From IMG/VR virus record IMGVR_UViG_3300037067_006044, positions 37,565 to 101,564 of that record: a stretch of DNA of 64,000 bases; one strand, given 5' to 3'. The stretch comes from a virus. Lineage: Duplodnaviria > Caudoviricetes. Position 1 is the first letter of the stretch; each line of letters opens with the position of its first letter. A program made the position numbers and the translations under genes. Under the pieces are notes generated by a model, which worked only from the letters and a program-made list of their open reading frames with translations, had not been told where the DNA came from and did not search any database. Shown here piece by piece: positions 7,812-41,332 of the stretch.

Positions 7812-9965
7812 TTAAAAGTTAAATAAATTTTTAGTTGTTTTATAATTGTTATTGAATTTTAATTTAAATTCGTCTGAATCTAATATTTCAATTCCTAAAT
7901 CTATTGCTTTTTGTTCTTTACCACTCCCACTACCTTTATATTTTACAATTAGATATTTAACATTTTTTGATATTCCACTTTTAACTTCTCCTCCATTATC
8001 TATAATATATTTTTCCATTTCATCATCTCTAAATCCAGTAAATACAAATGATAACCCGGTTAAAGAACCTTGTTTAGGTTGGGAAATTGTTTGTGTTTTA
8101 ATATTAATAAACTGTTCAATTTCTTTATAAAACAAATTAAATTTATCAATGTTATTTAAATAATCATTAACTAATATATCAGATAATCCATTTATTTCAA
8201 TTAATTCTTTTAATGATGGATTTTGATTTTTAGATTCTAATATGTAATCATTAATAAGTTTTAATTTCTTACTACCAGATTTCTTAAAACATCCTGAAGC
8301 ATGTTGTAATGTACTTAAATCAACATCTTTTAATTTTTTGTGAATATTATTAAAAACTATTTCTGCTTTTCTATTTCCAAATCCTTCAAAAGTTTTTAAT
8401 TTATTAATATCTAATTGTAATACTTTTAAAATAGAATCATATCCTTCTTCATATAAAATTCTAAATGTACTTTCTTTTACTTCCTCTACTCCAATTGTAT
8501 CAAAAAAAGAACTAATTACTTTTATTCTTTGTTCTTTACAATTATTATGATTAGTACAAACAAGATGAGTTTCATTTTCATCCCATTTTAATTTAGTATT
8601 ACATGATGGACAATATTCTTTTAAAAAAGAATGATTTTTAATTTCTTCTTTTCTAATTTCAATTAATTTTTCGACTGCCAAATCATATTCTTTAGTAGAA
8701 TTATATAAATGTTTAAAAGGAATTTTATGTCCATTAACACTAATAATTTTAGGTATAACTTCTCCAGAACGAATAACTTCTATTTTAGTTCCTGGAAATA
8801 ATCCAAACTGAAAAACATTATTATAATTATTTAAAGTACAATTTTCTATTTTTGCACCACCAATAAAAACGGGATTAATTTCTCCGACTGGTTGAATATT
8901 TCCTCTTTTTGAAACTTCATCTACAATATTATTTAAAACTGTTTCATAAGCTGTTTCAAAGTTTCCTTTATAAGCAAATGAAAAATTTGGATTTCCTTCT
9001 TTATGAATTCCTAATTTATTTCTTAAATCAACTGAATTAATATCTATTACAATTCCATCACATTCATATTCAGAATTAAATTCATTATAAATATCATTTA
9101 ACAATTCTTCTGTTAATTCTGATATTTTGTGTTTTTTATATTGAACTTTTACATTGTTTAATTCATTACAAATATCTAATTGTTTGTCTTTATTGTATAT
9201 TTGTTTTCCTTCTAAATTAAAATGATTGTAACGAATATAATCACAAATAGTAATGTCTTTATTTACTTCATCTTTATTAATAAATCCAGATACAGTATTT
9301 CTTGCTGCCTTAGGAATATCAATTTTAGAATTTAATTTTTGTTCTTGTAATTTTCTTTCTTGATATTGTTTAAAATTTGATTTAGAAATAATAACTTCTC
9401 CCGAAGTATAACAATGGGATTCTGATAATTTATTATTTGATTTTTCAATTGTATTTAAATGTTCTGTAGAATTTCTACCATAATCAGAATCCCCTCTTGT
9501 CCATGATTTTAAACTTGTTTCATTTCTGAGTTGGGATAATCCATCATATTTAGGAGATAAAACTACATCAGTAGAAGTTGGAATATTATGTCTTTTACAC
9601 CAATTAAGAATATCATTTATAGATTTGAATTTATCTAATGATCCCATTATAATTGGAAGTTTTTCTTTTCTACTATCTTTATCACTTACATTATATCCAA
9701 TTTGGAAAAATGAATCATTTGGTTTAAAATCTTTTAATAATTCATAAACTACATCATATTCTTTATCAGTTACAATACTTTCTCCTGTTCTATATGAAAT
9801 ATTCCATTCTGTAAGATATGTTTTTAATTCATCTAAAAATTTATTCCATTCTTCTTTAGATGGGAGATTATTTATTTTATATGAATTTGTTAATTGATTA
9901 ATTATAATATCTAAATTATAATTACAATCTTTTATAAGTTTTAATAATATTTCTTGTGAATTCAT
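7812..9965 (-). CDS. ligA: NAD-dependent DNA ligase
   Basis: KYDG adenylation motif, WTRGD, GEV, DGIVI, RSGEVIP OB-fold, CPSC zinc finger, C-terminal BRCT (FVFTG...GGEV). Confidence 0.95.
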   Translation of the reverse strand: MNSQEILLKLIKDCNYNLDIIINQLTNSYKINNLPSKEEWNKFLDELKTYLTEWNISYRTGESIVTDKEYDVVYELLKDFKPNDSFFQIGYNVSDKDSRKEKLPIIMGSLDKFKSINDILNWCKRHNIPTSTDVVLSPKYDGLSQLRNETSLKSWTRGDSDYGRNSTEHLNTIEKSNNKLSESHCYTSGEVIISKSNFKQYQERKLQEQKLNSKIDIPKAARNTVSGFINKDEVNKDITICDYIRYNHFNLEGKQIYNKDKQLDICNELNNVKVQYKKHKISELTEELLNDIYNEFNSEYECDGIVIDINSVDLRNKLGIHKEGNPNFSFAYKGNFETAYETVLNNIVDEVSKRGNIQPVGEINPVFIGGAKIENCTLNNYNNVFQFGLFPGTKIEVIRSGEVIPKIISVNGHKIPFKHLYNSTKEYDLAVEKLIEIRKEEIKNHSFLKEYCPSCNTKLKWDENETHLVCTNHNNCKEQRIKVISSFFDTIGVEEVKESTFRILYEEGYDSILKVLQLDINKLKTFEGFGNRKAEIVFNNIHKKLKDVDLSTLQHASGCFKKSGSKKLKLINDYILESKNQNPSLKELIEINGLSDILVNDYLNNIDKFNLFYKEIEQFINIKTQTISQPKQGSLTGLSFVFTGFRDDEMEKYIIDNGGEVKSGISKNVKYLIVKYKGSGSGKEQKAIDLGIEILDSDEFKLKFNNNYKTTKNLFNF

Positions 9966-32825: not shown

Positions 32826-33473
32826 TTATCTTTTATATTTATAATATGTAGATTCCTTAATATTCATAATAGACATAATATCCAATCTGTTTTTATTTTC
32901 TTTTATTAATTCTAAAAATTTAAGTAATCTTGGAATTATAAGTGGATTTTCTTTTCTTTTTTCTAAATATAATTTATAATTCAATTTATATTTTTCAGAA
33001 TTTTTAACACCATCCCCAATTTTAGTTTTTTGTTCCTCTGATAATAATTGTCCTGTTTTGGTTTTACTTATTTTATCTTTTATTTCTTGTGTTAAATGTA
33101 AAGGTCTTTTACCATCTTTAAATTCTTTTTTAATTCTAATAGACATTTTCTTCTTATTGTCTTCCGAATGTATTGGTTTGCCTGTTTTGGTTTTACTTAT
33201 TTTGTCTTTTATTTCTTGTGACATCAATTTACCAAAATTTGGATTTTTATCTCCTGTCCATTGTCCTATTCTGTTTTTTTGTATTTCGTCTTTATTTGGA
33301 TTATTTGTAAAAGTATCTCCTCCCCAATAACCATCTGAAATATTGTAACCATATCCTTGCTTATTTGCTTGTAATTCTTTAATCCAAAATCCTTCTTGTA
33401 TAATCATTTTTTCTTTTGAATCACAATGTTCTAAAATTACATTAATGTCTTTTAAAGGATTTTTTTTATTCAT
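32826..33473 (-). CDS. N-terminally truncated GIY-YIG homing endonuclease with NUMOD3 repeats
   Basis: ILEHC...E.FWIKE...GYNI half-domain but no GIY/YIG; QEIKDKISKTKTG twice. Confidence 0.7.
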   Translation of the reverse strand: MNKKNPLKDINVILEHCDSKEKMIIQEGFWIKELQANKQGYGYNISDGYWGGDTFTNNPNKDEIQKNRIGQWTGDKNPNFGKLMSQEIKDKISKTKTGKPIHSEDNKKKMSIRIKKEFKDGKRPLHLTQEIKDKISKTKTGQLLSEEQKTKIGDGVKNSEKYKLNYKLYLEKRKENPLIIPRLLKFLELIKENKNRLDIMSIMNIKESTYYKYKR

Positions 33474-33566
33474 TTTATTTAATTTTTAAAGTTTATTTTT
33501 AAATTAAAAATTCAATATTATTTTAAAAACAATATTGGAGTTATTGTCATGAAAAATTTGTGAATT

Positions 33567-34007
33567 CTATTTATTTAAAAGTTTTTCTATTTCTTCTAAT
33601 TCCATTTGAGCTTTTAATTCTGGGGATATTAATGAATTTAATCTGCTTTCTAATTCAAATAATTCTCTTTTTCGTTCTGATATTTGAAGTACATTCATTC
33701 TTGTTTTTAAATCTGCGAACCATTCATCTTTAGTAAACCCTAACCAGGTGTATTTTTCAGAAGAACCTAATTCTTGAGCTGTTTCATTATAAACTGTTTC
33801 TCTTAATTTTAAGAATGAACCAATTTCAATTAATTTTCTTTCATCTCTTATTGTTGAAATATCAAATAATCGTGAAGGTTCACTATCAGAATATTTAAAT
33901 CCACCACAAGGATAAGAAGGTTTTAATGCTTTTTCTACTAATTGTTTTTTAACTTGTAGAGCTTCAAATAATTTTAATACTTTTTCATCTGTAATTTTTG
34001 TTGTCAT
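33567..34007 (-). CDS. hypothetical protein downstream of the RNA-motif array
   Basis: 146-aa ORF co-oriented with the ncRNA/tRNA cluster. Confidence 0.8.
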   Translation of the reverse strand: MTTKITDEKVLKLFEALQVKKQLVEKALKPSYPCGGFKYSDSEPSRLFDISTIRDERKLIEIGSFLKLRETVYNETAQELGSSEKYTWLGFTKDEWFADLKTRMNVLQISERKRELFELESRLNSLISPELKAQMELEEIEKLLNK

Positions 34008-34055
34008 GATGTTTTAATTTAATTAATAAAATTGCTGTTTATTTTGTTTTATAAA

Positions 34056-34118
34056 AAGAATAAATTATATGTCTATTAAAATTTCAAGTTTTTAGAAGTA
34101 AGACATATTTAGATTCTT
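34056..34118 (-). ncRNA. structured RNA motif copy A (UUACUUCUA motif)
   Basis: AAGAAT-CTAAA-TATGTC-TTACTTCTA-AAAA[CTTGAAA]TTTT-AATA-GACATA-TAATTT-ATTCTT. Confidence 0.75.
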
Positions 34119-34122
34119 AATG

Positions 34123-34194
34123 TAACCCATCCTGGATTTGAACCAGGGATACCAAGATGAAAACCTGGTGTGATAACCACTTCACCAATGGGGT
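34123..34194 (-). tRNA. tRNA-Glu(UUC)
   Basis: Cloverleaf: D arm GTGA/TCAC, anticodon arm CCAGG-TTTTCAT-CTTGG, T arm CCTGG-TTCAAAT-CCAGG; one acceptor mismatch; no encoded CCA. Confidence 0.85.
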
Positions 34195-34207
34195 AATTGT
34201 TATTTTA

Positions 34208-34274
34208 AAGAAATAAATTAATTGACTAATTGAGCTTAACAGGTTCGTAGAAGTAAGTCAATTTTAGATTTCTT
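34208..34274 (-). ncRNA. structured RNA motif copy B
   Basis: AAGAAAT-CTAAA-ATTGAC-TTACTTCTA-CGAAC[CTGTTAA]GCTCA-ATTA-GTCAAT-TAATTT-ATTTCTT. Confidence 0.75.
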
Positions 34275-34333
34275 ATTTTTATATAAATTATGAACTTTTG
34301 TTTTAAAAACTATTAATTATTAAATTCATTAAA

Positions 34334-34400
34334 AAGAAAATTAATTTGACAACTATTTAAAATCCATATTTTTAGAAGTAAGTTATCATTAGATTTTCTT
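34334..34400 (-). ncRNA. structured RNA motif copy C
   Basis: AAGAAAAT-CTAA-TGATAAC-TTACTTCTA-AAAA[TATGGA]TTTT-AAATA-GTTGTCA-AATTA-ATTTTCTT; U-G wobble on the minus strand. Confidence 0.75.
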
Positions 34401-34461
34401 GTATTTTTTATATATTTATATTAATTATTAAAAATATAAATATAATTATTTAAATAAAAAA

Positions 34462-36501
34462 TTAAATTCCCATAAATTTCATTATATTAATATAATTTGT
34501 TGAAAAATCTTCAAATAAATAATGAGTTGTTGCAGTTTCTTTACTTACTAATCTTCCTCTACTTTCGACATTCCAACTTAATAAATCATATACTGATAGT
34601 TTTGGGTTTTCCGAATACATTTTAATTAAATTAAGAACAGTAGATAAATCTCTACTTGAAACATTTGAGTCCGAATCAATATCTAACCAAATATATTCTC
34701 TTGTTTCTAAATCAATTATACAAAGTAATGTACCTGCTGCCGTCGATTGAATTTGTGTACAATTATTAATCATAGAAGGCATAAAATTAGTATTGGCTTC
34801 TGGATGTTTTCTTCCTTCAAATCCTAAAACACATTGTTCATAGATACTAAATGCTTTATTATCATGATATGAAGCTCTAAAATCTCTTGCATCCATTACA
34901 ACATATTTATATCCTTGTTTAGTTAATTCAGAAACATTTAAATCAATATATTCTGCACAAGCACCATGTCTATCAGTAATATCTCCAGAATATAATGCAA
35001 TTCTATTATTTCTATCTCCATTCCAACCAACAAAGTCAATATTAGTTCCAACTAACCAAGCACCTAAATCTATATCACATCCACCAGGAGTTTCACCATT
35101 ATTAAACCAATGTACAAATGCTCTAATTGTTTTTTGATTAACATTTATTGGCATTCTTTGTCCTCTTATAATTGGTTTTAAAGAAGGATTTAAACTTCTC
35201 ATATTTGTTGGCAATGGTATTTTCTTTAATTCTTCGTCAATCCAACAATCTCCTAATTTATCTGATAAACTAAATTTATATTTTAGAGTTTCAAATATTT
35301 GACTTTGAATTTCATTAATAATATTTTCAGATAATGGTTCTAAAGATATTAATTGCTTTGATTTTCTATGTCCTTTAATAAATATATTTCTGTCTTGTTC
35401 AACTCGTCTGTTTTCAAAATGAGTATAAACTTCAAATAAAACTTTGTTAGATATTTTATCAGATACTTTACATAGAACATTAAATATATCTTGAATTTTA
35501 TCTTTATTAGTTCTAATTAAATAATCCAGTCTTCTGACAAATTCTCCTGGTCTTTCTGATAATTTATTTAATCCTGTTTCAAATGACGTTTTAAACGCTT
35601 TATCAACTTCACCATTCCAAGATACAACTTTTTCATTTCTTAATTGTTGAAATGATTTAAATGATTTTGGATATTGTTTAGAATAATTTCCTGGATGAAT
35701 AATTTCTCCTAACTTAATCCATCTCTCGATTTTAAGTTTCATTTCTCTTACATCTAAATTAGAGTTTTCTAAAAGAGAAAGAATATATCGTTTTTCTGAA
35801 TTAGTGAATTTTTTGAATTTATTTTTATCTGCGTTTTTCTTTGTTATTGCTGGTAACGAAATATCTCCACCTGACATTGATAATGCTATTCTAAGAACAT
35901 CAGTTGTTGTTTTAACTGGAACATTTATTTCCATTCCTGCTAATGTACATAAGTTTTCTTTAAATGGAATTTCTTTTGGAAATTGTAATTTTCTTCCACT
36001 ATTAACAAACCATTTAATAACATCTAAATCTGTTGGAGTTAATGATTGATTGGCACTACATAAATCAGTAAATATTTTATCAAACATTTCTTCTGTTCCT
36101 GATTTGATAATAGTGTAATTAGGTTGTTCAAATGCAACTTGTTTTTCTTTAGTCCATATCTGAACAGTATCAAATTTACCATTCGTCCAATAATGAACAA
36201 ATTGATTATACCATAATTCATATTCAGATAATTCTAAAACTTGAGTTGGAAATCCTGGATATAATGGTTGATAATTTCTATTACTGCCAGTCATTTCTTT
36301 TAAATAAGAAATTACTTCATTATGAAATTCTATAATTTCAGATTTATCAGAATAACCAAGTTGTTTAAAAGCATCTTTATTTAACATATATCCAAATCTC
36401 ATCAATTCAGATTGAACTTGAGAAACAAATAAACGATTATCTACATTAATGTTTTTTGTGGTTATAAAACCGTTTGAAAAAGAAATAACATTTTTTGTCA
36501 T
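34462..36501 (-). CDS. large alpha-helical protein with probable TerD-like C-terminal domain (MXAN_6230/SCO0854-like, no RING finger seen)
   Basis: PLYPGFP, IPFKENL, TTTDVLR, IHPG, RPGEFVRRLDYLIR, C-terminal FVHW...DIDL...YSGDIT..GACAEYIDL; family recalled from memory, not searched. Confidence 0.65.
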   Translation of the reverse strand: MTKNVISFSNGFITTKNINVDNRLFVSQVQSELMRFGYMLNKDAFKQLGYSDKSEIIEFHNEVISYLKEMTGSNRNYQPLYPGFPTQVLELSEYELWYNQFVHYWTNGKFDTVQIWTKEKQVAFEQPNYTIIKSGTEEMFDKIFTDLCSANQSLTPTDLDVIKWFVNSGRKLQFPKEIPFKENLCTLAGMEINVPVKTTTDVLRIALSMSGGDISLPAITKKNADKNKFKKFTNSEKRYILSLLENSNLDVREMKLKIERWIKLGEIIHPGNYSKQYPKSFKSFQQLRNEKVVSWNGEVDKAFKTSFETGLNKLSERPGEFVRRLDYLIRTNKDKIQDIFNVLCKVSDKISNKVLFEVYTHFENRRVEQDRNIFIKGHRKSKQLISLEPLSENIINEIQSQIFETLKYKFSLSDKLGDCWIDEELKKIPLPTNMRSLNPSLKPIIRGQRMPINVNQKTIRAFVHWFNNGETPGGCDIDLGAWLVGTNIDFVGWNGDRNNRIALYSGDITDRHGACAEYIDLNVSELTKQGYKYVVMDARDFRASYHDNKAFSIYEQCVLGFEGRKHPEANTNFMPSMINNCTQIQSTAAGTLLCIIDLETREYIWLDIDSDSNVSSRDLSTVLNLIKMYSENPKLSVYDLLSWNVESRGRLVSKETATTHYLFEDFSTNYINIMKFMGI

Positions 36502-36521
36502 AATTAATAAGTTTTTAAAAA

Positions 36522-36581
36522 TTAATAAATTATATCACTATCAAAATCAATATTTTTAGAAGTAAGTGATATTTAGATTAA
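36522..36581 (-). ncRNA. structured RNA motif copy D, 20 nt upstream of the 679-aa start codon
   Basis: TTAAT-CTAAA-TATCAC-TTACTTCTA-AAAA[TATTGA]TTTT-GATA-GTGATA-TAATTT-ATTAA. Confidence 0.75.
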
Positions 36582-36587
36582 AAATTG

Positions 36588-36706
36588 AAGAGTAGATTGG
36601 ATTCGAACCAATGACCAGGAGATTAGAAATCTTAGAAGTAACTTTATTTTAGATTTCGTTGATAAATTAATAAAGTAACCTGCTCTACCAGCTGAGCTAC
36701 TACTCT
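36588..36706 (-). ncRNA. tRNA-Arg(UCU)-like RNA with 46-nt motif insertion in the anticodon stem, copy 1
   Basis: AGAGTAG/CTACTCT acceptor, GCTC-AGCTGGTA-GAGC D arm, GG[46 nt]AGA-TTTCTAA-TCTCC, ATTGG-TTCGAAT-CCAAT T arm; 73 nt without the insert. Confidence 0.85.
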
Positions 36707-36749
36707 TATCAATATTTTTAGAAGTAAGTGATATTTAGATTAAAAATTG

Positions 36750-36868
36750 AAGAATAGATTGGATTCGAACCAATGACCAGGAGATTAGAAATCTTAGAAG
36801 TAACTTTATTTTAGATTTCGTTGATAAATTAATAAAGTAACCTGCTCTACCAGCTGAGCTACTACTCT
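36750..36868 (-). ncRNA. tRNA-Arg(UCU)-like RNA with 46-nt motif insertion, copy 2
   Basis: Same as copy 1 except a G-U wobble in the acceptor stem (CTATTCT). Confidence 0.85.
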
Positions 36869-36897
36869 TATCAATATTTTTAGAACTTTGTGTTTTG

Positions 36898-36972
36898 TGA
36901 CCCATCTGTGACTCGAACACAGGACCCTATCATTAAAAGTGATATGCTCTAAACCAACTGAGCTAATGAGTC
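36898..36972 (-). tRNA. tRNA-Lys(UUU)
   Basis: GACTCAT/ATGGGTC acceptor, TATCA-CTTTTAA-TGATA anticodon arm, CTGTG-TTCGAGT-CACAG T arm. Confidence 0.93.
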
Positions 36973-36981
36973 TTTTATTTT

Positions 36982-37047
36982 AAAGAATGAATTAAACAAC
37001 TATTAAAATATATAAATTTTTAGAAGTAAGTTGTTCTTAAATTCTTT
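36982..37047 (-). ncRNA. structured RNA motif copy E
   Basis: AAAGAAT-TTAAG-AACAAC-TTACTTCTA-AAAAT[TTATAT]ATTTT-AATA-GTTGTT-TAATTC-ATTCTTT. Confidence 0.72.
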
Positions 37048-37295
37048 TTAAAAATATAATAAATTTTTTATAATTTTTCTACATAATTAATCATTTCTTG
37101 TATTTTATTTTGAATTGAAATTAAATCTGAAATTATCATATATTTTATTTCTTTTTGATCGTTTGGATTTGAATATTTATTTAATACTTTTTCGATGTCT
37201 TCTTTTGAATTGGCTTTATAAAATCAACCAACATTTTTAATTCTATTCCTAAATTGTTCATATCTTTTAAATTTTAAAGTTTTAAATTTATAATA

Positions 37296-37326
37296 CAAAG
37301 TTAATAAAAATACTTTAATAAACAAA
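37296..37326 (-). promoter_or_regulatory. Bacteroidota sigma70-type promoter upstream of the RNA-motif/tRNA cluster
   Basis: TTTG-N19-TAACTTTG. Confidence 0.7.
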
Positions 37327-37333
37327 CTTTTCT

Positions 37334-37807
37334 TTAATTATTTTTTAAATTGTTTAAATATTTTATTTTATTATTATATTCATCAGTTAATTTCTCAATT
37401 CTTAAATTGATTTTATTCTCAATTTCTTTTCCAACTAATATATTCAATTTAAATTTATTTGTTTTTAAATCATAAATTCCAATTTGAAAATCATATTTCG
37501 TTTGAATATCAAATAAACCAAAAGTTAAATCATCTTCATCTTGTGCAAAATCTAAACATAATTTCTTTATTTGTAATTTTCTTGATTCTAAAAGATTTGA
37601 ACCAAATATATAATTAGTATTAATTGATAATAATGACTGAATTTCATAAAATGCTATTTGAATTGAGGAATCATATTCAACGATTTTATAAGTTGTTTTA
37701 TCATCTTTTGACTGAATTATATTATATAATTTTTCTATTGTTTCAACATCAATATTTTCAGTAGAAATTAATTTCTTATCATTATAAAATTTTACTTTGA
37801 AATTCAT
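37334..37807 (-). CDS. hypothetical protein
   Basis: 157-aa ORF. Confidence 0.7.
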   Translation of the reverse strand: MNFKVKFYNDKKLISTENIDVETIEKLYNIIQSKDDKTTYKIVEYDSSIQIAFYEIQSLLSINTNYIFGSNLLESRKLQIKKLCLDFAQDEDDLTFGLFDIQTKYDFQIGIYDLKTNKFKLNILVGKEIENKINLRIEKLTDEYNNKIKYLNNLKNN

Positions 37808-38213: not shown

Positions 38214-38849
38214 TCATAAATTAAATTTTTTAACATTTTCAACATCTTTATCCCAAATAATACAAGTTAAATCTTCATTTTTCATAATTTTATTTATAGT
38301 ATTATTAATAATAAAACTATCTCCTCCTGCTAATCCACTTCCTATCAACGGAAATAAAAACTTTAAATTTTTATTACCAAAATCTTTCTTTAAATTAATA
38401 AACAATTTTTCAATTGCATTTAATCTTATTCTTTCTGTTTTAGATTTATCACTATTGGGTTCATATAATCCATAACTATATTGGGAATATCCATTAATAA
38501 TAGAAAACTTACCTGCTTTATATTCTGAATAATTTCCTAATTTATTAATATCTCCTTTAATTGTTTGTTTATCAATTAAAAGAACTTCTGGATATTTATT
38601 TGATATTTGTTTAGCTATTCCAGCTCCCATTACACAGAAACAATTACAACCATGAATTATAATATCATAATTGTTTAATTCATCTAATAGATTTCCTTTA
38701 ATATATTTGATTGTATTTTTATTTTCCATTTTTGTTCTTCTTTTCTTTGAATTTTCTTTTTGGTGTTTATTCCAAGTTATCCATTCTTCTTCTGATAGAT
38801 TATCTATTAATCCGAAGAATTGATTGTCTAATTTCTTCCAATTTGCCAT
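38214..38849 (-). CDS. macrodomain (ADP-ribose processing, T4 tk.4-like) protein
   Basis: IKGNLL...IIHGCNCFCVMGAGIAKQI...FPLIGSGLAGG; start may be the internal MENKN. Confidence 0.9.
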   Translation of the reverse strand: MANWKKLDNQFFGLIDNLSEEEWITWNKHQKENSKKRRTKMENKNTIKYIKGNLLDELNNYDIIIHGCNCFCVMGAGIAKQISNKYPEVLLIDKQTIKGDINKLGNYSEYKAGKFSIINGYSQYSYGLYEPNSDKSKTERIRLNAIEKLFINLKKDFGNKNLKFLFPLIGSGLAGGDSFIINNTINKIMKNEDLTCIIWDKDVENVKKFNL

Positions 38850-40057: not shown

Positions 40058-41332
40058 TTATTCGAATTCTACAATGTATTTCGGTGTACATTGTCTGTCA
40101 TCATATATAATATACTCTGATCTATATAATGAAACTCCTTTTTGAGCCCAAACACTATCATAATCAGAATTTTTAATTTGTTTACTAATATTATAACAAT
40201 CCGAATCATGTTTTGTTTTTATTAATTGTTTCCCTACATGAAAATCAAATAATAATAAAAGTTGTTTTGATGTAGATTGTCCTCCAACCCATCTACCAGA
40301 ATCTGTATATCCAAAACTCTTATCATGATCCGAAGCTGCATAAATACCTGAATCCCACATATTTCCATTGAAATTGGCGAAAGATGGACGAATTAATAAA
40401 GATTTGCTGATTATGCTTAAATAATTACAACTTTTTGAACCGTGCCACAATAATTGTGTTTCTTTATTCTTAGCATTCTTTACATAATTATCGAATATTT
40501 CTTGTTGTTTATAATTAGTAATTCTAAATGCTTGTTTAAATCTTTGATGACTTGTATCGCTATCTTTTATAATTTTCTTAATCTTATCTTCTTCATCTTT
40601 AGTAATTGGTTCAATATTAATTCCAAGAGATTTAAGAATATCAAACTTATCACTTATTCCTTTTTCGTTCTTAATCTTTTCAATCTCTTGTTTAATTGTG
40701 TCTCTTTGACTTTTTACATTCTGTTCAAGTGCATCTAATAATTCCTGTTCATTATCTATCTTTTCAAATGCCTTTTGTAATTCGTCTTTATCTACAATCG
40801 GAGTAAATAATGAAGTTTTAACATCTCTCAATTTTCTTTGAGAAAGAGAAATAAGTTCTAAATAATCATTGTTTATTTTATTAATATCACAATTAACAGA
40901 AATATTTTGTCTAATATTACTAATTAATTCATTTACTCTTTTAAAGAGTTTATCATTTGGAAGTACATCACCTAAGATATAGTTTTCTTTAATAGTATTA
41001 CTACTTGCATTATTAAGATAAACTATTAAATCGTGAATTAGTTTATTTTCTATTTGGAAAGATTGTGAATTACCATCTGACGATTCTTTTAAAGATATCA
41101 ACTCGAAAAATTCTGTGCGGTCAATATATCCCTTTTTATCTGATATAGAACCATTGTATTTTGTTCTCCACCCAGATTCAGATTTTTGTTCAAGTTTACC
41201 AGAAGAACCAATTCTTCCATAGTAACATTCAAACATATTTTCTTTTTTAATTGCCTTCCAAAATTTATAATTGTTTTCCATTGGGCGACAACTAACAAGA
41301 TAATAAAAGTCTTTAATTTCAAAATTACTCAT
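40058..41332 (-). CDS. PARP-like ADP-ribosyltransferase (WGR, helical and catalytic domains)
   Basis: NNYKFW...YYGRIG (WGR), LLWHGS, GNMWDSGIYAA, KSFGY, SEYIIY: H-Y-E triad present. Confidence 0.88.
   Translation of the reverse strand: MSNFEIKDFYYLVSCRPMENNYKFWKAIKKENMFECYYGRIGSSGKLEQKSESGWRTKYNGSISDKKGYIDRTEFFELISLKESSDGNSQSFQIENKLIHDLIVYLNNASSNTIKENYILGDVLPNDKLFKRVNELISNIRQNISVNCDINKINNDYLELISLSQRKLRDVKTSLFTPIVDKDELQKAFEKIDNEQELLDALEQNVKSQRDTIKQEIEKIKNEKGISDKFDILKSLGINIEPITKDEEDKIKKIIKDSDTSHQRFKQAFRITNYKQQEIFDNYVKNAKNKETQLLWHGSKSCNYLSIISKSLLIRPSFANFNGNMWDSGIYAASDHDKSFGYTDSGRWVGGQSTSKQLLLLFDFHVGKQLIKTKHDSDCYNISKQIKNSDYDSVWAQKGVSLYRSEYIIYDDRQCTPKYIVEFE

What the first reader, a model, noticed from the sequence alone, without database searches (positions are those of the whole stretch)
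34056..37047. Candidate new ribonucleoprotein system: array of a covarying UUACUUCUA RNA motif around a TerD-like-domain gene
Seen: five free-standing minus-strand units (34056-34118, 34208-34274, 34334-34400, 36522-36581, 36982-37047) share the layout P1-CUAAA-P2-UUACUUCUA-hairpin-UA-P2'-UAAUUU-P1'. The 9-mer is invariant and the linkers nearly so. P2 changes sequence but stays paired in every copy: TATGTC/GACATA, ATTGAC/GTCAAT, TGATAAC/GTTGTCA, TATCAC/GTGATA, AACAAC/GTTGTT, plus ATAAAG/CTTTAT in the tRNA-embedded form. The U-G wobble in copy C works only on the minus (coding) strand. The units flank the 679-aa gene on both sides, are interleaved with tRNAs, and were not noticed elsewhere in the window. 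Known: bacterial Ro60/Rsr genes sit beside Y RNAs such as YrlA, which join a protein-binding stem to a tRNA-like domain. Inference: the 679-aa helical protein binds these RNAs as a Ro60/Y-RNA analogue, perhaps for RNA repair or defence evasion, with the 146-aa ORF at 33567-34007 as a possible partner.
Basis: partly seen in the sequence, partly recalled or inferred. Interest (0 to 1): 0.93.

Follow-up and report, generated by a model that had tools for sequence, protein, structure and literature searches.

The report
Ro60-like phage protein with handle-and-cargo RNAs
An extremely AT-rich jumbo phage carries five small structured RNAs and two whole tRNAs that share one conserved "handle"; they surround a gene for a Ro60-shaped protein, and the same RNA-protein pair recurs in distant phages and in bacteria, so it looks like an undescribed cousin of the Ro60/Y-RNA particle.

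Summary
Five free-standing minus-strand units and two tRNA-embedded copies share the layout P1-CUAA-P2-UUACUUCUA-cargo-UA-P2'-AAUUU-P1'. They lie only at 34056-37047, around the 679-aa gene and three kinds of tRNA.

- **Association.** A covariance model of the unit found 186 matches in 68 of 70 related phage loci and 44 matches in 26 of 28 bacterial loci. Every match was on the gene's strand, within about 3 kb of a homologous gene.
- **Structure.** P1 and P2 covary strongly (92.7% of cells paired, against 52% when shuffled).
- **Protein.** The AlphaFold model (pLDDT 92) has a C-terminal TerD domain (Z 14.7). Its helical part matches only Ro60 proteins (Z 10.4, 10.2 and 9.4; the next unrelated hit is 5.3). 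No TROVE sequence signal is detectable, and TerD stands where Ro60 has vWA.
- **RNA family.** The handle is in no Rfam family. Only tRNA-like cargos in relatives give sub-threshold YrlA hits.

Best reading: a Ro60/Y-RNA-like particle whose RNAs display tRNA parts. In this window the cargo includes a whole tRNA with an Arg-UCU anticodon arm. Binding and function are untested.

This scan has already noted the same system in dozens of other genomes. I found no paper that describes it.

The parts
36982..37047 (-). Handle RNA unit E (P1 AAAGAAU / AUUCUUU, P2 GAACAAC / GUUGUUU, 9-mer UUACUUCUA, short A/U cargo)
   Evidence: Sequence; covariance-model hit at 29.1 bits
36897..36972 (-). tRNA-Lys(UUU), ordinary
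   Evidence: ARAGORN; Rfam tRNA 66.1 bits
36749..36868 (-). tRNA with Arg(UCU) anticodon arm, duplicated copy. It carries the handle in permuted order as a 46-nt insertion (36795-36840) between positions 28 and 29 of the anticodon stem
   Evidence: Rfam tRNA 43.0 bits with an insertion; 162-bp tandem repeat
36707..36743 (-). Truncated 5' half of unit D, left by the 162-bp tandem duplication; holds the eighth 9-mer at 36719-36727
   Evidence: the chimeric model hit at 36658-36745
36587..36706 (-). tRNA with Arg(UCU) anticodon arm, carrying the permuted handle (insertion 36633-36678). P1 is capped by a loop and the tRNA body takes the cargo position
   Evidence: Rfam tRNA 45.4 bits; ARAGORN -i; deleting the insertion gives a 74-nt tRNA-Arg(tct)
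36522..36581 (-). Handle RNA unit D
   Evidence: Sequence; model hit at 23.3 bits
34462..36501 (-). 679-aa protein: Ro60-like helical domain (about residues 29-450) plus a TerD-fold domain (about 455-628)
   Evidence: ORF; phrog_33734 E 2.7e-63; AF2 pLDDT 92; TerD Z 14.7 and Ro60 Z 10.4, 10.2, 9.4; NF041916 at 206 bits, below its cut-off
34335..34399 (-). Handle RNA unit C (P2 has one U-G pair)
   Evidence: Sequence; model hit at 30.1 bits
34208..34274 (-). Handle RNA unit B (the cargo contains CUGUUAA, an Asn-like 7-nt word)
   Evidence: Sequence; model hit at 34.8 bits
34122..34194 (-). tRNA-Glu(UUC), ordinary, between units B and A
   Evidence: ARAGORN; Rfam tRNA 55.9 bits
34056..34118 (-). 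Handle RNA unit A (cargo hairpin AAAA-CUUGAAA-UUUU)
   Evidence: Sequence; model hit at 31.3 bits
33567..34007 (-). 146-aa helical ORF (phrog_2574), a clade-specific conserved neighbour that follows the RNA array; its role is unknown
   Evidence: PHROG E 4.1e-10; syntenic homologue in 28 related loci; AF2 pLDDT 84 with no informative fold match

Best explanation
The locus encodes a ribonucleoprotein built on the Ro60/Y-RNA plan.

The protein. The 679-aa protein has a Ro60-like helical body, with a TerD beta-sandwich where Ro60 has its vWA domain. The TerD acidic metal-binding motifs are conserved.

The RNAs. Each RNA has a conserved handle. It consists of stem P1, a small internal loop (CUAA opposite AAUUU here; CUAU opposite AAUUU with a GG/CC clamp in most relatives), stem P2, and an asymmetric loop with the unpaired UU(A/C)CUUCUA opposite UA. 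The handle is inferred to be the docking site for the protein.

The cargo. Beyond the handle each RNA carries a different cargo. In this window these are five short A/U hairpins and, twice, a whole tRNA with an Arg-UCU anticodon arm joined through positions 28/29 of its anticodon stem.

Shown: the RNA structure, by covariation; its strict co-location and co-orientation with the gene across phages and bacteria; and the protein's fold likeness.

Inferred: that the protein binds the handle, and that the particles display tRNA parts. The display could recruit or distract tRNA-binding enzymes such as processing, repair or anticodon-cutting nucleases during infection, as Y RNAs tether partners to Ro60.
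For: RNA structure:
- 13 of 13 P1/P2 pairs show compensatory changes.
- On 149 distinct units, 92.7% of cells are paired against 52.2% when shuffled. The covariation score is 0.926 against 0.19, and 0.10-0.16 with slid partners.
- G-U pairs outnumber A-C pairs 104 to 36.

Association:
- 186 of 186 model hits lie on the gene strand, in 68 of 70 phage loci.
- On bacterial loci not used for training, 44 of 44 hits lie on the gene strand, in 26 of 28 loci. The two blanks are cut at the gene's start.
- Named phages show it too: XacN1, Weasels2 and a gut phage.
- XacN1 and Weasels2 have this gene but no canonical TROVE gene.

Protein:
- pLDDT 92.
- TerD match at Z 14.7.
- Ro60 of frog, Thermus phage phiLo and Deinococcus match at Z 10.4, 10.2 and 9.4 over 291-312 residues. 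The next unrelated chain scores 5.3.
- The DxD, SGD and E motifs are invariant and align to the TerD Ca-binding motifs.

Cargo:
- Relatives carry permuted tRNA-like bodies that give sub-threshold YrlA hits of 30-44 bits.
- Some tRNA-like cargos lack any anticodon loop, for example L175:247-382, L167:2109-2252 and L132:4840-4963, read directly from the sequence.
- The window's Arg-UCU cargo lacks A20 and A73, which the ordinary phage tRNA-Arg(UCU) genes of relatives have. Its body resembles the Asn-type handle-bearing tRNA of relatives.

Transcription:
- In XacN1, near-consensus sigma-70 promoters (12 of 12 and 11 of 12 matches) sit inside the array. One ends 12 nt before a unit.
Against: There is no expression or binding data.

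No sequence-level link to TROVE was found: no Pfam hit, none in an HMM search of PDB sequences, and hhalign probability 0.16% against three canonical phage Ro60s. The Ro60 likeness therefore rests on a predicted model, at Z about 10, a range where helical repeats can match by chance arrangement.

In this AT-rich window the units fold weakly, and the opposite strand folds as well.

The covariation alignments were either pre-selected for pairing (A2) or fitted to the model (A4).

In bacteria the units lie just upstream of the gene, which also fits a cis-acting leader.
Confidence: 0.7

Rival explanations
1. The handle is a processing or splicing signal for disrupted tRNA genes. It would mark an intron at position 28/29 in this window and leader-trailer pairing around permuted tRNA genes in relatives. 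This would be analogous to the bulge-helix-bulge motif of archaeal and red-algal intron-containing, split and permuted tRNAs. The 679-aa protein would be the recognition or cleavage factor, and RtcB-type ligases would seal the product.
For: Exact deletion of the 46-nt insertion gives a canonical 74-nt tRNA with a GGAGA/UCUCC stem and an Arg-UCU loop. The same 28/29 junction occurs in Asn(GUU) tRNAs of relatives (L135:5754-5880, L141, L142). Some permuted cargos keep a full anticodon arm and even an encoded CCA (L175:96-238, His GUG; L130:7076-7201, Lys CUU). RtcB lies about 3 kb downstream in Weasels2.
Against: Most units (149 distinct short-cargo units) carry no tRNA at all. Several tRNA-like cargos have no anticodon loop and could never yield a decoding tRNA. 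The protein shows no nuclease or ligase fold. The window's cargo lacks A20 and A73 of ordinary tRNA-Arg. The spacing between the 9-mer and position 29 varies from 0 to 3 nt. No RtcB or Rnl2 was found in the held fragment, but it is only 36% complete.
Confidence: 0.12
2. The units are cis-regulatory elements of the gene's own transcript. They would be leader or trailer structures that the protein binds to control its own synthesis or mRNA stability, rather than free small RNAs.
For: All units are co-oriented with the gene and usually lie within a few hundred bases of it. In bacterial chromosomes one to three copies lie directly upstream of the start codon.
Against: Arrays of 4-8 units occur on either side of the gene and are interleaved with tRNA genes. 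Whole tRNAs and YrlA-like bodies serve as cargo. Consensus promoters lie inside the XacN1 array. In the canonical system, Y RNAs are likewise encoded beside rsr (PMC4201824).
Confidence: 0.08
3. The units are copies of a small selfish DNA element (MITE-like or homing-associated) that spreads within tRNA regions, with no function as RNA.
For: The units are multiple dispersed copies with inverted-repeat ends. An HNH-like ORF lies nearby (32826-33473). One copy sits inside a tRNA gene and is flanked by the short direct repeat GTTACTT. There is a recent 162-bp duplication.
Against: The copies differ in stem sequence but keep their pairing, with G-U favoured over A-C on one strand only. The unpaired 9-mer and linkers are conserved between phages of Actinobacteria, Xanthomonas, gut bacteria and Bacillales chromosomes, while the stems are not. 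All 230 model hits lie on the gene strand.
Confidence: 0.03

Closest known systems
Ro60 (Rsr) with Y RNAs, especially YrlA/YrlB of bacteria and phages (Rfam RF02553; PMC4201824; Thermus phage phiLo Ro60 with Yrl1 and Yrl2, PMC12135203)
   Same: The small structured RNAs are encoded next to the protein gene, often near tRNA genes. Their 5' and 3' ends close a stem that carries a conserved internal loop. The distal part can be a tRNA-like domain with a T arm, a D arm and a closed acceptor stem. The protein's helical domain matches Ro60 structures (Z 9.4-10.4). The system occurs in both phages and bacteria.
   Different: No TROVE sequence signature is detectable. A TerD fold stands in place of the vWA/MIDAS domain. 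The handle motif is UU(A/C)CUUCUA opposite UA, plus CUAU opposite AAUUU, rather than the CGAA-type loop of Y RNAs. There are arrays of 4-8 RNAs with varied cargo, including complete tRNAs in normal gene order. No unit in the window gives a YrlA hit even at E up to 1.
TerD family (Pfam PF02342; PDB 2qz7, 2kxt, 3ibz)
   Same: The C-terminal residues 455-628 superpose on TerD (Z 14.7, rmsd 2.6 A over 157 residues). The acidic DxD, SGD and E motifs are conserved.
   Different: Here TerD is one domain of a 679-aa protein fused to a large helical body. There are no ter-operon neighbours. Only 2 of 52 family members reach Pfam TerD, and the window's protein does not.
NCBIfam NF041916, MXAN_6230/SCO0854 family RING domain-containing protein
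   Same: This is the only named sequence family that matches. The window's protein scores E 8e-61 and bacterial homologues up to E 3.7e-148, over most of the helical and TerD parts.
   Different: Scores of 206-495 bits stay below the 600-bit equivalog cut-off. The longest matched stretches start near profile position 385, and the N-terminal part of the profile was not seen to match. I found no paper on either locus tag.
Intron-containing, split and permuted tRNA genes processed through the bulge-helix-bulge motif (archaea, Cyanidioschyzon merolae; review PMC4090602)
   Same: One RNA module is found as an insertion in a tRNA and, in relatives, as paired leader and trailer around a tRNA gene whose 3' half precedes its 5' half.
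   Different: The module has a conserved sequence and is far longer than a BHB. The junction lies in the anticodon stem at 28/29. Most copies carry no tRNA. No splicing endonuclease homologue was seen.

Membership tests
Ro60 / TROVE (Pfam PF05731) | TROVE-domain sequence signature | tested here: not met
   There was no Pfam hit for the protein or for any of 52 family members at E up to 1. PF05731 found nothing in the record, while it did find Ro60 in Bxz1, CcrColossus and phage G. A profile search against PDB sequences found none. hhalign against three phage Ro60s gave probability 0.16% (the template profile is thin).
Ro60 / TROVE (Pfam PF05731) | Ring-forming HEAT-like helical domain | tested here: met
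   The AF2 model (pLDDT 92) was compared with 48,161 chains. Apart from TerD, the only hits above Z 5.3 are 1yvp_A (Z 10.4, rmsd 4.5 A, 312 residues aligned), 9l5y_B (Z 10.2) and 2nvo_A (Z 9.4). Caveats: this is a predicted model, Z is below the tool's caution line for helical repeats, and ring closure was not inspected.
Ro60 / TROVE (Pfam PF05731) | C-terminal vWA domain with MIDAS | tested here: not met
   The C-terminal domain is a TerD beta-sandwich (Foldseek E 9.6e-6; Z 14.7).
Ro60 / TROVE (Pfam PF05731) | Binds adjacent small RNAs (Y RNAs) | not testable with these tools
   Only the co-location of the genes is shown.
YrlA Y RNA (Rfam RF02553) | Score at or above the gathering threshold of 69 bits | tested here: not met
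   There is no YrlA hit in window 33400-37600 at E up to 1. Relatives reach 30-44 bits, only over the tRNA-like cargo.
YrlA Y RNA (Rfam RF02553) | tRNA-like domain (T arm, D arm, closed acceptor stem) at the end of the protein-binding stem | tested here: inconclusive
   This feature is present in relatives (L130:7076-7201, L175:247-382, L167:2109-2252). In the window the tRNA cargo is a complete tRNA with open acceptor ends and a capped P1, and five units have only short hairpins.
TerD (Pfam PF02342) | TerD fold with acidic Ca-binding motifs | tested here: met
   2qz7_B matches at Z 14.7 and 2kxt at Z 12.4. D478, S505-G506-D507 and E517 are invariant and align to the TerD motifs. The window's protein itself gives no Pfam TerD hit.
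NCBIfam NF041916 (RING_SCO0854 equivalog) | Whole-protein score at or above 600 bits | tested here: not met
   The window's protein scores 206 bits. Bacterial homologues score 481-495 bits and seven longer relatives 184-400 bits.
tRNA (Rfam RF00005), for 36587-36706 and 36749-36868 | Cloverleaf at or above the gathering score; canonical anticodon arm | tested here: met
   The two copies score 45.4 and 43.0 bits against a gathering score of 29. The anticodon arm is canonical only after removal of the 46-nt handle. Positions 20, 32 and 73 differ from the ordinary phage tRNA-Arg(UCU) of relatives.
BHB-dependent tRNA introns / permuted tRNA genes | Bulge-helix-bulge (3-4-3) motif at both junctions | tested here: inconclusive
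   This was checked by eye only. The junctions flank a three-way junction with an 8-nt unpaired strand, and no 3-4-3 motif was seen. No dedicated BHB search was run.

The most novel reading that the evidence does not exclude
The handle is a portable docking module that lets one Ro60-like ring carry interchangeable tRNA parts: whole tRNAs, anticodon arms or T arms. Phages would use the resulting set of particles as decoys, sensors or repair platforms against tRNA-cutting host defences. Alternatively, handle-bearing and permuted tRNA genes are matured by precise excision of the handle, which would be a protein-guided tRNA splicing pathway in bacteria and phages.
Probability: 0.2. Interest if true: 0.9.

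Novelty: new variant of a known kind. Interest (0 to 1): 0.77.

Why it matters
Ro60 and Y RNAs are the only known particle of this kind, and their bacterial role is still only partly understood.

A second, sequence-unrelated but similarly shaped protein family appears here. It has 2,379 cluster representatives, its own RNA family absent from Rfam, and a different C-terminal domain (TerD). That would show that the "ring plus tethering RNA" design is more general than thought.

Its RNAs carry recognisable tRNA pieces and sit in phage tRNA clusters. This points to tRNA surveillance, repair or counter-defence during infection.

Cultivable carriers make the idea directly testable: Priestia megaterium, Paenibacillus, Xanthomonas phage XacN1 and Rhodococcus phage Weasels2.

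This window adds the most AT-rich variant. Its conserved GG/CC clamp has become AU/AU, while the unpaired motifs are kept. It also adds a complete tRNA as cargo in normal gene order.

Tried and rejected
- A 14-base pattern scan of viral contigs gave only single, chance-level matches. Relatives were found through the protein instead.
- The promoter and terminator scan of the window is uninformative at 21% GC: 29 sites against 36.8 expected, and no terminators.
- Single-sequence folding gives z of only -1.0 to -2.5, and the complementary strand folds as well. It cannot decide structure or strand.
- Sequence links to Ro60 were sought four ways and none was found.
- PADLOC gave no defence-system match.
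- RtcB, Rnl2 and TROVE were not found in the held 101.5 kb. The record is about 36% complete, so this says little.
- The search for related loci with the broad alignment A1 failed on genome contigs. A closer alignment, A6, worked.
- Relatives cannot be drawn for a virus record.
- ORF146 fold searches gave only generic helical matches (Z up to 7.5) and uncharacterised phage proteins.
- The tally of anticodon-like 7-nt loops after the 9-mer found 29 of 85 hairpins among 252 sites, led by Lys UUU with 5. By my rough estimate that is about twice chance, so "every cargo displays an anticodon loop" is not supported.
- In-silico circular joining of permuted cargos followed by ARAGORN was not discriminating. 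ARAGORN calls a tRNA at almost any trim.
- My first parses of the embedded tRNA (anticodon stem GGUUA/UAAUC with an 8-nt variable loop, and ARAGORN's 38-nt intron at 30/31) were dropped for the 28/29 insertion, which restores a perfect stem.
- Neighbouring genes in bacteria are unrelated housekeeping genes with no conserved third partner.

Full report
**Setting.** The window is part of a 101.5-kb IMG/VR virus record, estimated 36% complete, with 21% G+C. PHROG matches mark it as a large tailed phage, as do an NAD-dependent DNA ligase, a cell-wall amidase, and a PARP-like and a macro-domain gene.

**Observation.** Reading the minus strand from 37047 to 33567 gives this order:
- unit E
- tRNA-Lys(UUU)
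- two tandem copies of a tRNA that carries a large insertion, with a truncated unit between them
- unit D
- the 679-aa gene
- units C and B
- tRNA-Glu(UUC)
- unit A
- a 146-aa ORF

TTACTTCTA occurs 11 times in the window against 1.23 expected, and eight copies lie on the minus strand of this 3-kb stretch. The two embedded copies and the truncated unit come from a 162-bp tandem duplication that is 99% identical. A covariance model finds no further unit in the window or in the other 37.5 kb of the record. That part also holds no tRNA.

In this A/U-rich sequence the folds are weak (z -1.0 to -2.5), and the opposite strand folds equally well. The window alone therefore does not prove an RNA structure.

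**Comparative evidence.** The 679-aa protein belongs to a very large family with no known function: 2,379 cluster representatives at E up to 0.001, no Pfam domain, phrog_33734.

Homologous genes at 47-48% identity in 35% G+C phage contigs are followed directly by four to seven units with the same layout and the same 9-mer. The same holds at 22-30% protein identity for Rhodococcus phage Weasels2, Xanthomonas phage XacN1 and a human-gut phage. In the latter two the 9-mer is UUCCUUCUA.

I built a model from 49 short-cargo units. RNAalifold recovers P1 (5 bp) and P2 (8 bp), and all 13 pairs show compensatory changes.
- On 70 phage loci the model gave 186 matches at E up to 0.01, all on the gene's strand, in 68 loci.
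- On 28 bacterial loci that played no part in training (Priestia megaterium, Paenibacillus, Saccharibacillus, Laceyella, Chitinimonas and several MAGs) it gave 44 matches, all on the gene's strand, in 26 loci. The two blanks are cut at the gene's start.
- Across 149 distinct units, 92.7% of cells pair against 52.2% after shuffling. The covariation score is 0.926 against 0.19, and 0.10-0.16 with slid partners.
- G-U pairs outnumber A-C pairs 104 to 36, which fits an RNA read from the gene's strand.

These alignments were selected for pairing or fitted to the model, so the percentages lean high. The strand and location results do not share that bias.

**The handle.** The consensus is NNNGG-CUAU-P2 (8 bp, usually ending in C)-UU(A/C)CUUCUA-cargo-UA-P2' (usually starting with G)-AAUUU-CCNNN. 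The unpaired letters are 83-100% conserved, apart from the A/C third letter of the 9-mer and the first two and the last letter of AAUUU (55-71%). The window's copies keep CUA(A), the 9-mer, UA and AAUUU. The GG/CC clamp, which is G-C in 135-138 of 149 units, has become AU/AU, a double compensatory change.

**Cargo.** Beyond the handle the RNAs differ.
- Most carry a short hairpin.
- Some relatives carry a T-arm-like hairpin.
- Some carry a circularly permuted tRNA body: T arm, closed or CCA-bearing acceptor stem, then D arm. Rfam's YrlA model recognises this below threshold at 30-44 bits, against a gathering score of 69.
- The window shows the reverse topology. P1 is capped by a loop, and a whole tRNA occupies the cargo position, joined between positions 28 and 29 of its anticodon stem.

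Deleting 36633-36678 gives a 74-nt tRNA-Arg(UCU) with a GGAGA/UCUCC stem. The same 28/29 junction occurs in Asn(GUU) tRNAs of relatives.

The window's cargo has U20, U32 and U73 where the ordinary phage tRNA-Arg(UCU) genes of relatives have A20, C32 and A73. Its body resembles the Asn-type handle-bearing tRNA. From my own knowledge, A20 and the discriminator base are arginine identity elements in E. coli. The cargo therefore looks more like a tRNA body that displays an Arg-type anticodon arm than a standard tRNA-Arg; this is an inference.

**The protein.** AlphaFold2 with a 52-sequence alignment gives pLDDT 92 and pTM 0.89.
- Foldseek finds only TerD structures, for the C-terminal domain.
- An all-against-representatives structural search puts TerD first: 2qz7_B at Z 14.7 over residues 455-626.
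- Next come three Ro60 proteins from different sequence clusters: frog Ro60 1yvp_A (Z 10.4, 312 residues aligned, rmsd 4.5 A), Thermus phage phiLo Ro60 9l5y_B (Z 10.2) and Deinococcus Rsr 2nvo_A (Z 9.4).
- The next unrelated chain scores 5.3.
- The invariant D478, S505-G506-D507 and E517 align to TerD's acidic metal-binding motifs.

At the sequence level there is no link to TROVE. The only named family that matches is NCBIfam NF041916 ("MXAN_6230/SCO0854 family RING domain-containing protein"), at 206 bits against a 600-bit cut-off. I found no paper on it. XacN1 and Weasels2 carry this gene but no canonical TROVE gene.

**Mechanism.** The best-supported reading is a Ro60/Y-RNA-like particle: the protein docks on the handle, and the cargo is displayed.

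The structure of the RNA family, its tie to the gene and the fold likeness rest on tool results. Binding, stoichiometry and purpose are inferred by analogy with Ro60, whose Y RNAs tether partners such as PNPase and mimic tRNA (PMC4201824, PMC12135203).

All tRNAs in the held part of this phage (Lys UUU, Glu UUC, Arg UCU) lie inside the array. Together with the tRNA-derived cargo, this points to tRNA surveillance, repair, or decoying of tRNA-cutting defences. I could not test that.

The main rival is that the handle marks tRNA genes for excision and ligation. It explains the exact 28/29 junction and the permuted tRNAs with encoded CCA. It does not explain the majority of units, which hold no tRNA, or the tRNA-like cargos without an anticodon loop. 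The protein also shows no nuclease or ligase fold.

A cis-regulatory leader and a selfish DNA repeat fit still less. The reasons are the arrays interleaved with tRNAs, the consensus promoters inside the XacN1 array, and strand-specific covariation with conserved unpaired letters.

**The 146-aa ORF.** A homologue follows the array in all 28 loci of the clade closest to this phage, but not in the more distant clades. It is helical with no informative fold match. Its partner role stays open.

**Novelty.** Rfam 15 has no family for the handle. Searches of the held literature found canonical phage Ro60/Y RNA work and a passing mention of TROVE and TerD proteins in jumbo phages (PMC7824862). They found no description of this protein-RNA pair.

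This scan has already noted the same system in dozens of other genomes. My results agree with those notes and were obtained independently on this window.

I class it as a new variant of a known kind. The plan is that of Ro60/Y RNA, but with a different C-terminal domain, no detectable TROVE sequence and a different RNA family.

Noticed in passing
window 36546-36885: A 162-bp tandem duplication (2.1 copies, 99% identical) doubles the handle-bearing tRNA and leaves a truncated unit between the copies. It looks recent. The second copy has one G-U in its acceptor stem.
   Followed up: partly
window 34122-36972 and the whole 101.5-kb record: The only tRNAs in the held record are Lys(UUU), Glu(UUC) and the two Arg(UCU)-type copies, all inside the RNA array. 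They read AAA, GAA and AGA, which I would expect to be common in a 21% G+C genome. From memory, tRNAs of these kinds are among the classic targets of anticodon nucleases.
   Followed up: partly
window 38214-38849 and 40058-41332: A macro-domain protein (E 5.5e-5) and a PARP catalytic-domain protein with a weak WGR match (E 7.4e-21) lie just upstream on the same strand. They form a possible ADP-ribose writer and eraser pair.
   Followed up: no
window 32826-33473: A 215-aa ORF next to the 146-aa ORF matches a PHROG homing-endonuclease family (E 1.8e-13).
   Followed up: no
L129:4466-4622 (Xanthomonas phage XacN1): Two near-perfect sigma-70 promoters (11 of 12 and 12 of 12 matches) lie inside the RNA array upstream of the homologous gene. 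One ends 12 nt before a handle unit. This is a cultured system in which transcription of the units could be tested.
   Followed up: partly
L126:3015-3087; L128:10637-11043; L131:808-1105: Related phage contigs carry large tRNA arrays with a CUA-anticodon (amber-reading) tRNA. Two of them also carry phage-encoded tmRNA genes.
   Followed up: no
L126:8173-8330 and 8543-8662: Some units in relatives carry cargos of 100 nt or more that are not tRNA-like. One is a long insert between P2 and the 9-mer. Their nature is unexplained.
   Followed up: no
L227-L229, L233-L235, L238-L244, L246, L248: The protein-RNA pair sits in chromosomes of cultured bacteria (Priestia megaterium, Paenibacillus, Saccharibacillus, Laceyella putida, Chitinimonas lacunae) among unrelated housekeeping genes. 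In one case it lies next to an IS3-type transposase.
   Followed up: partly
window 34462-36501: NCBIfam NF041916 names a sister family as RING domain-containing (MXAN_6230/SCO0854). Whether those longer actinobacterial and myxobacterial proteins also have handle RNAs nearby was not checked.
   Followed up: no
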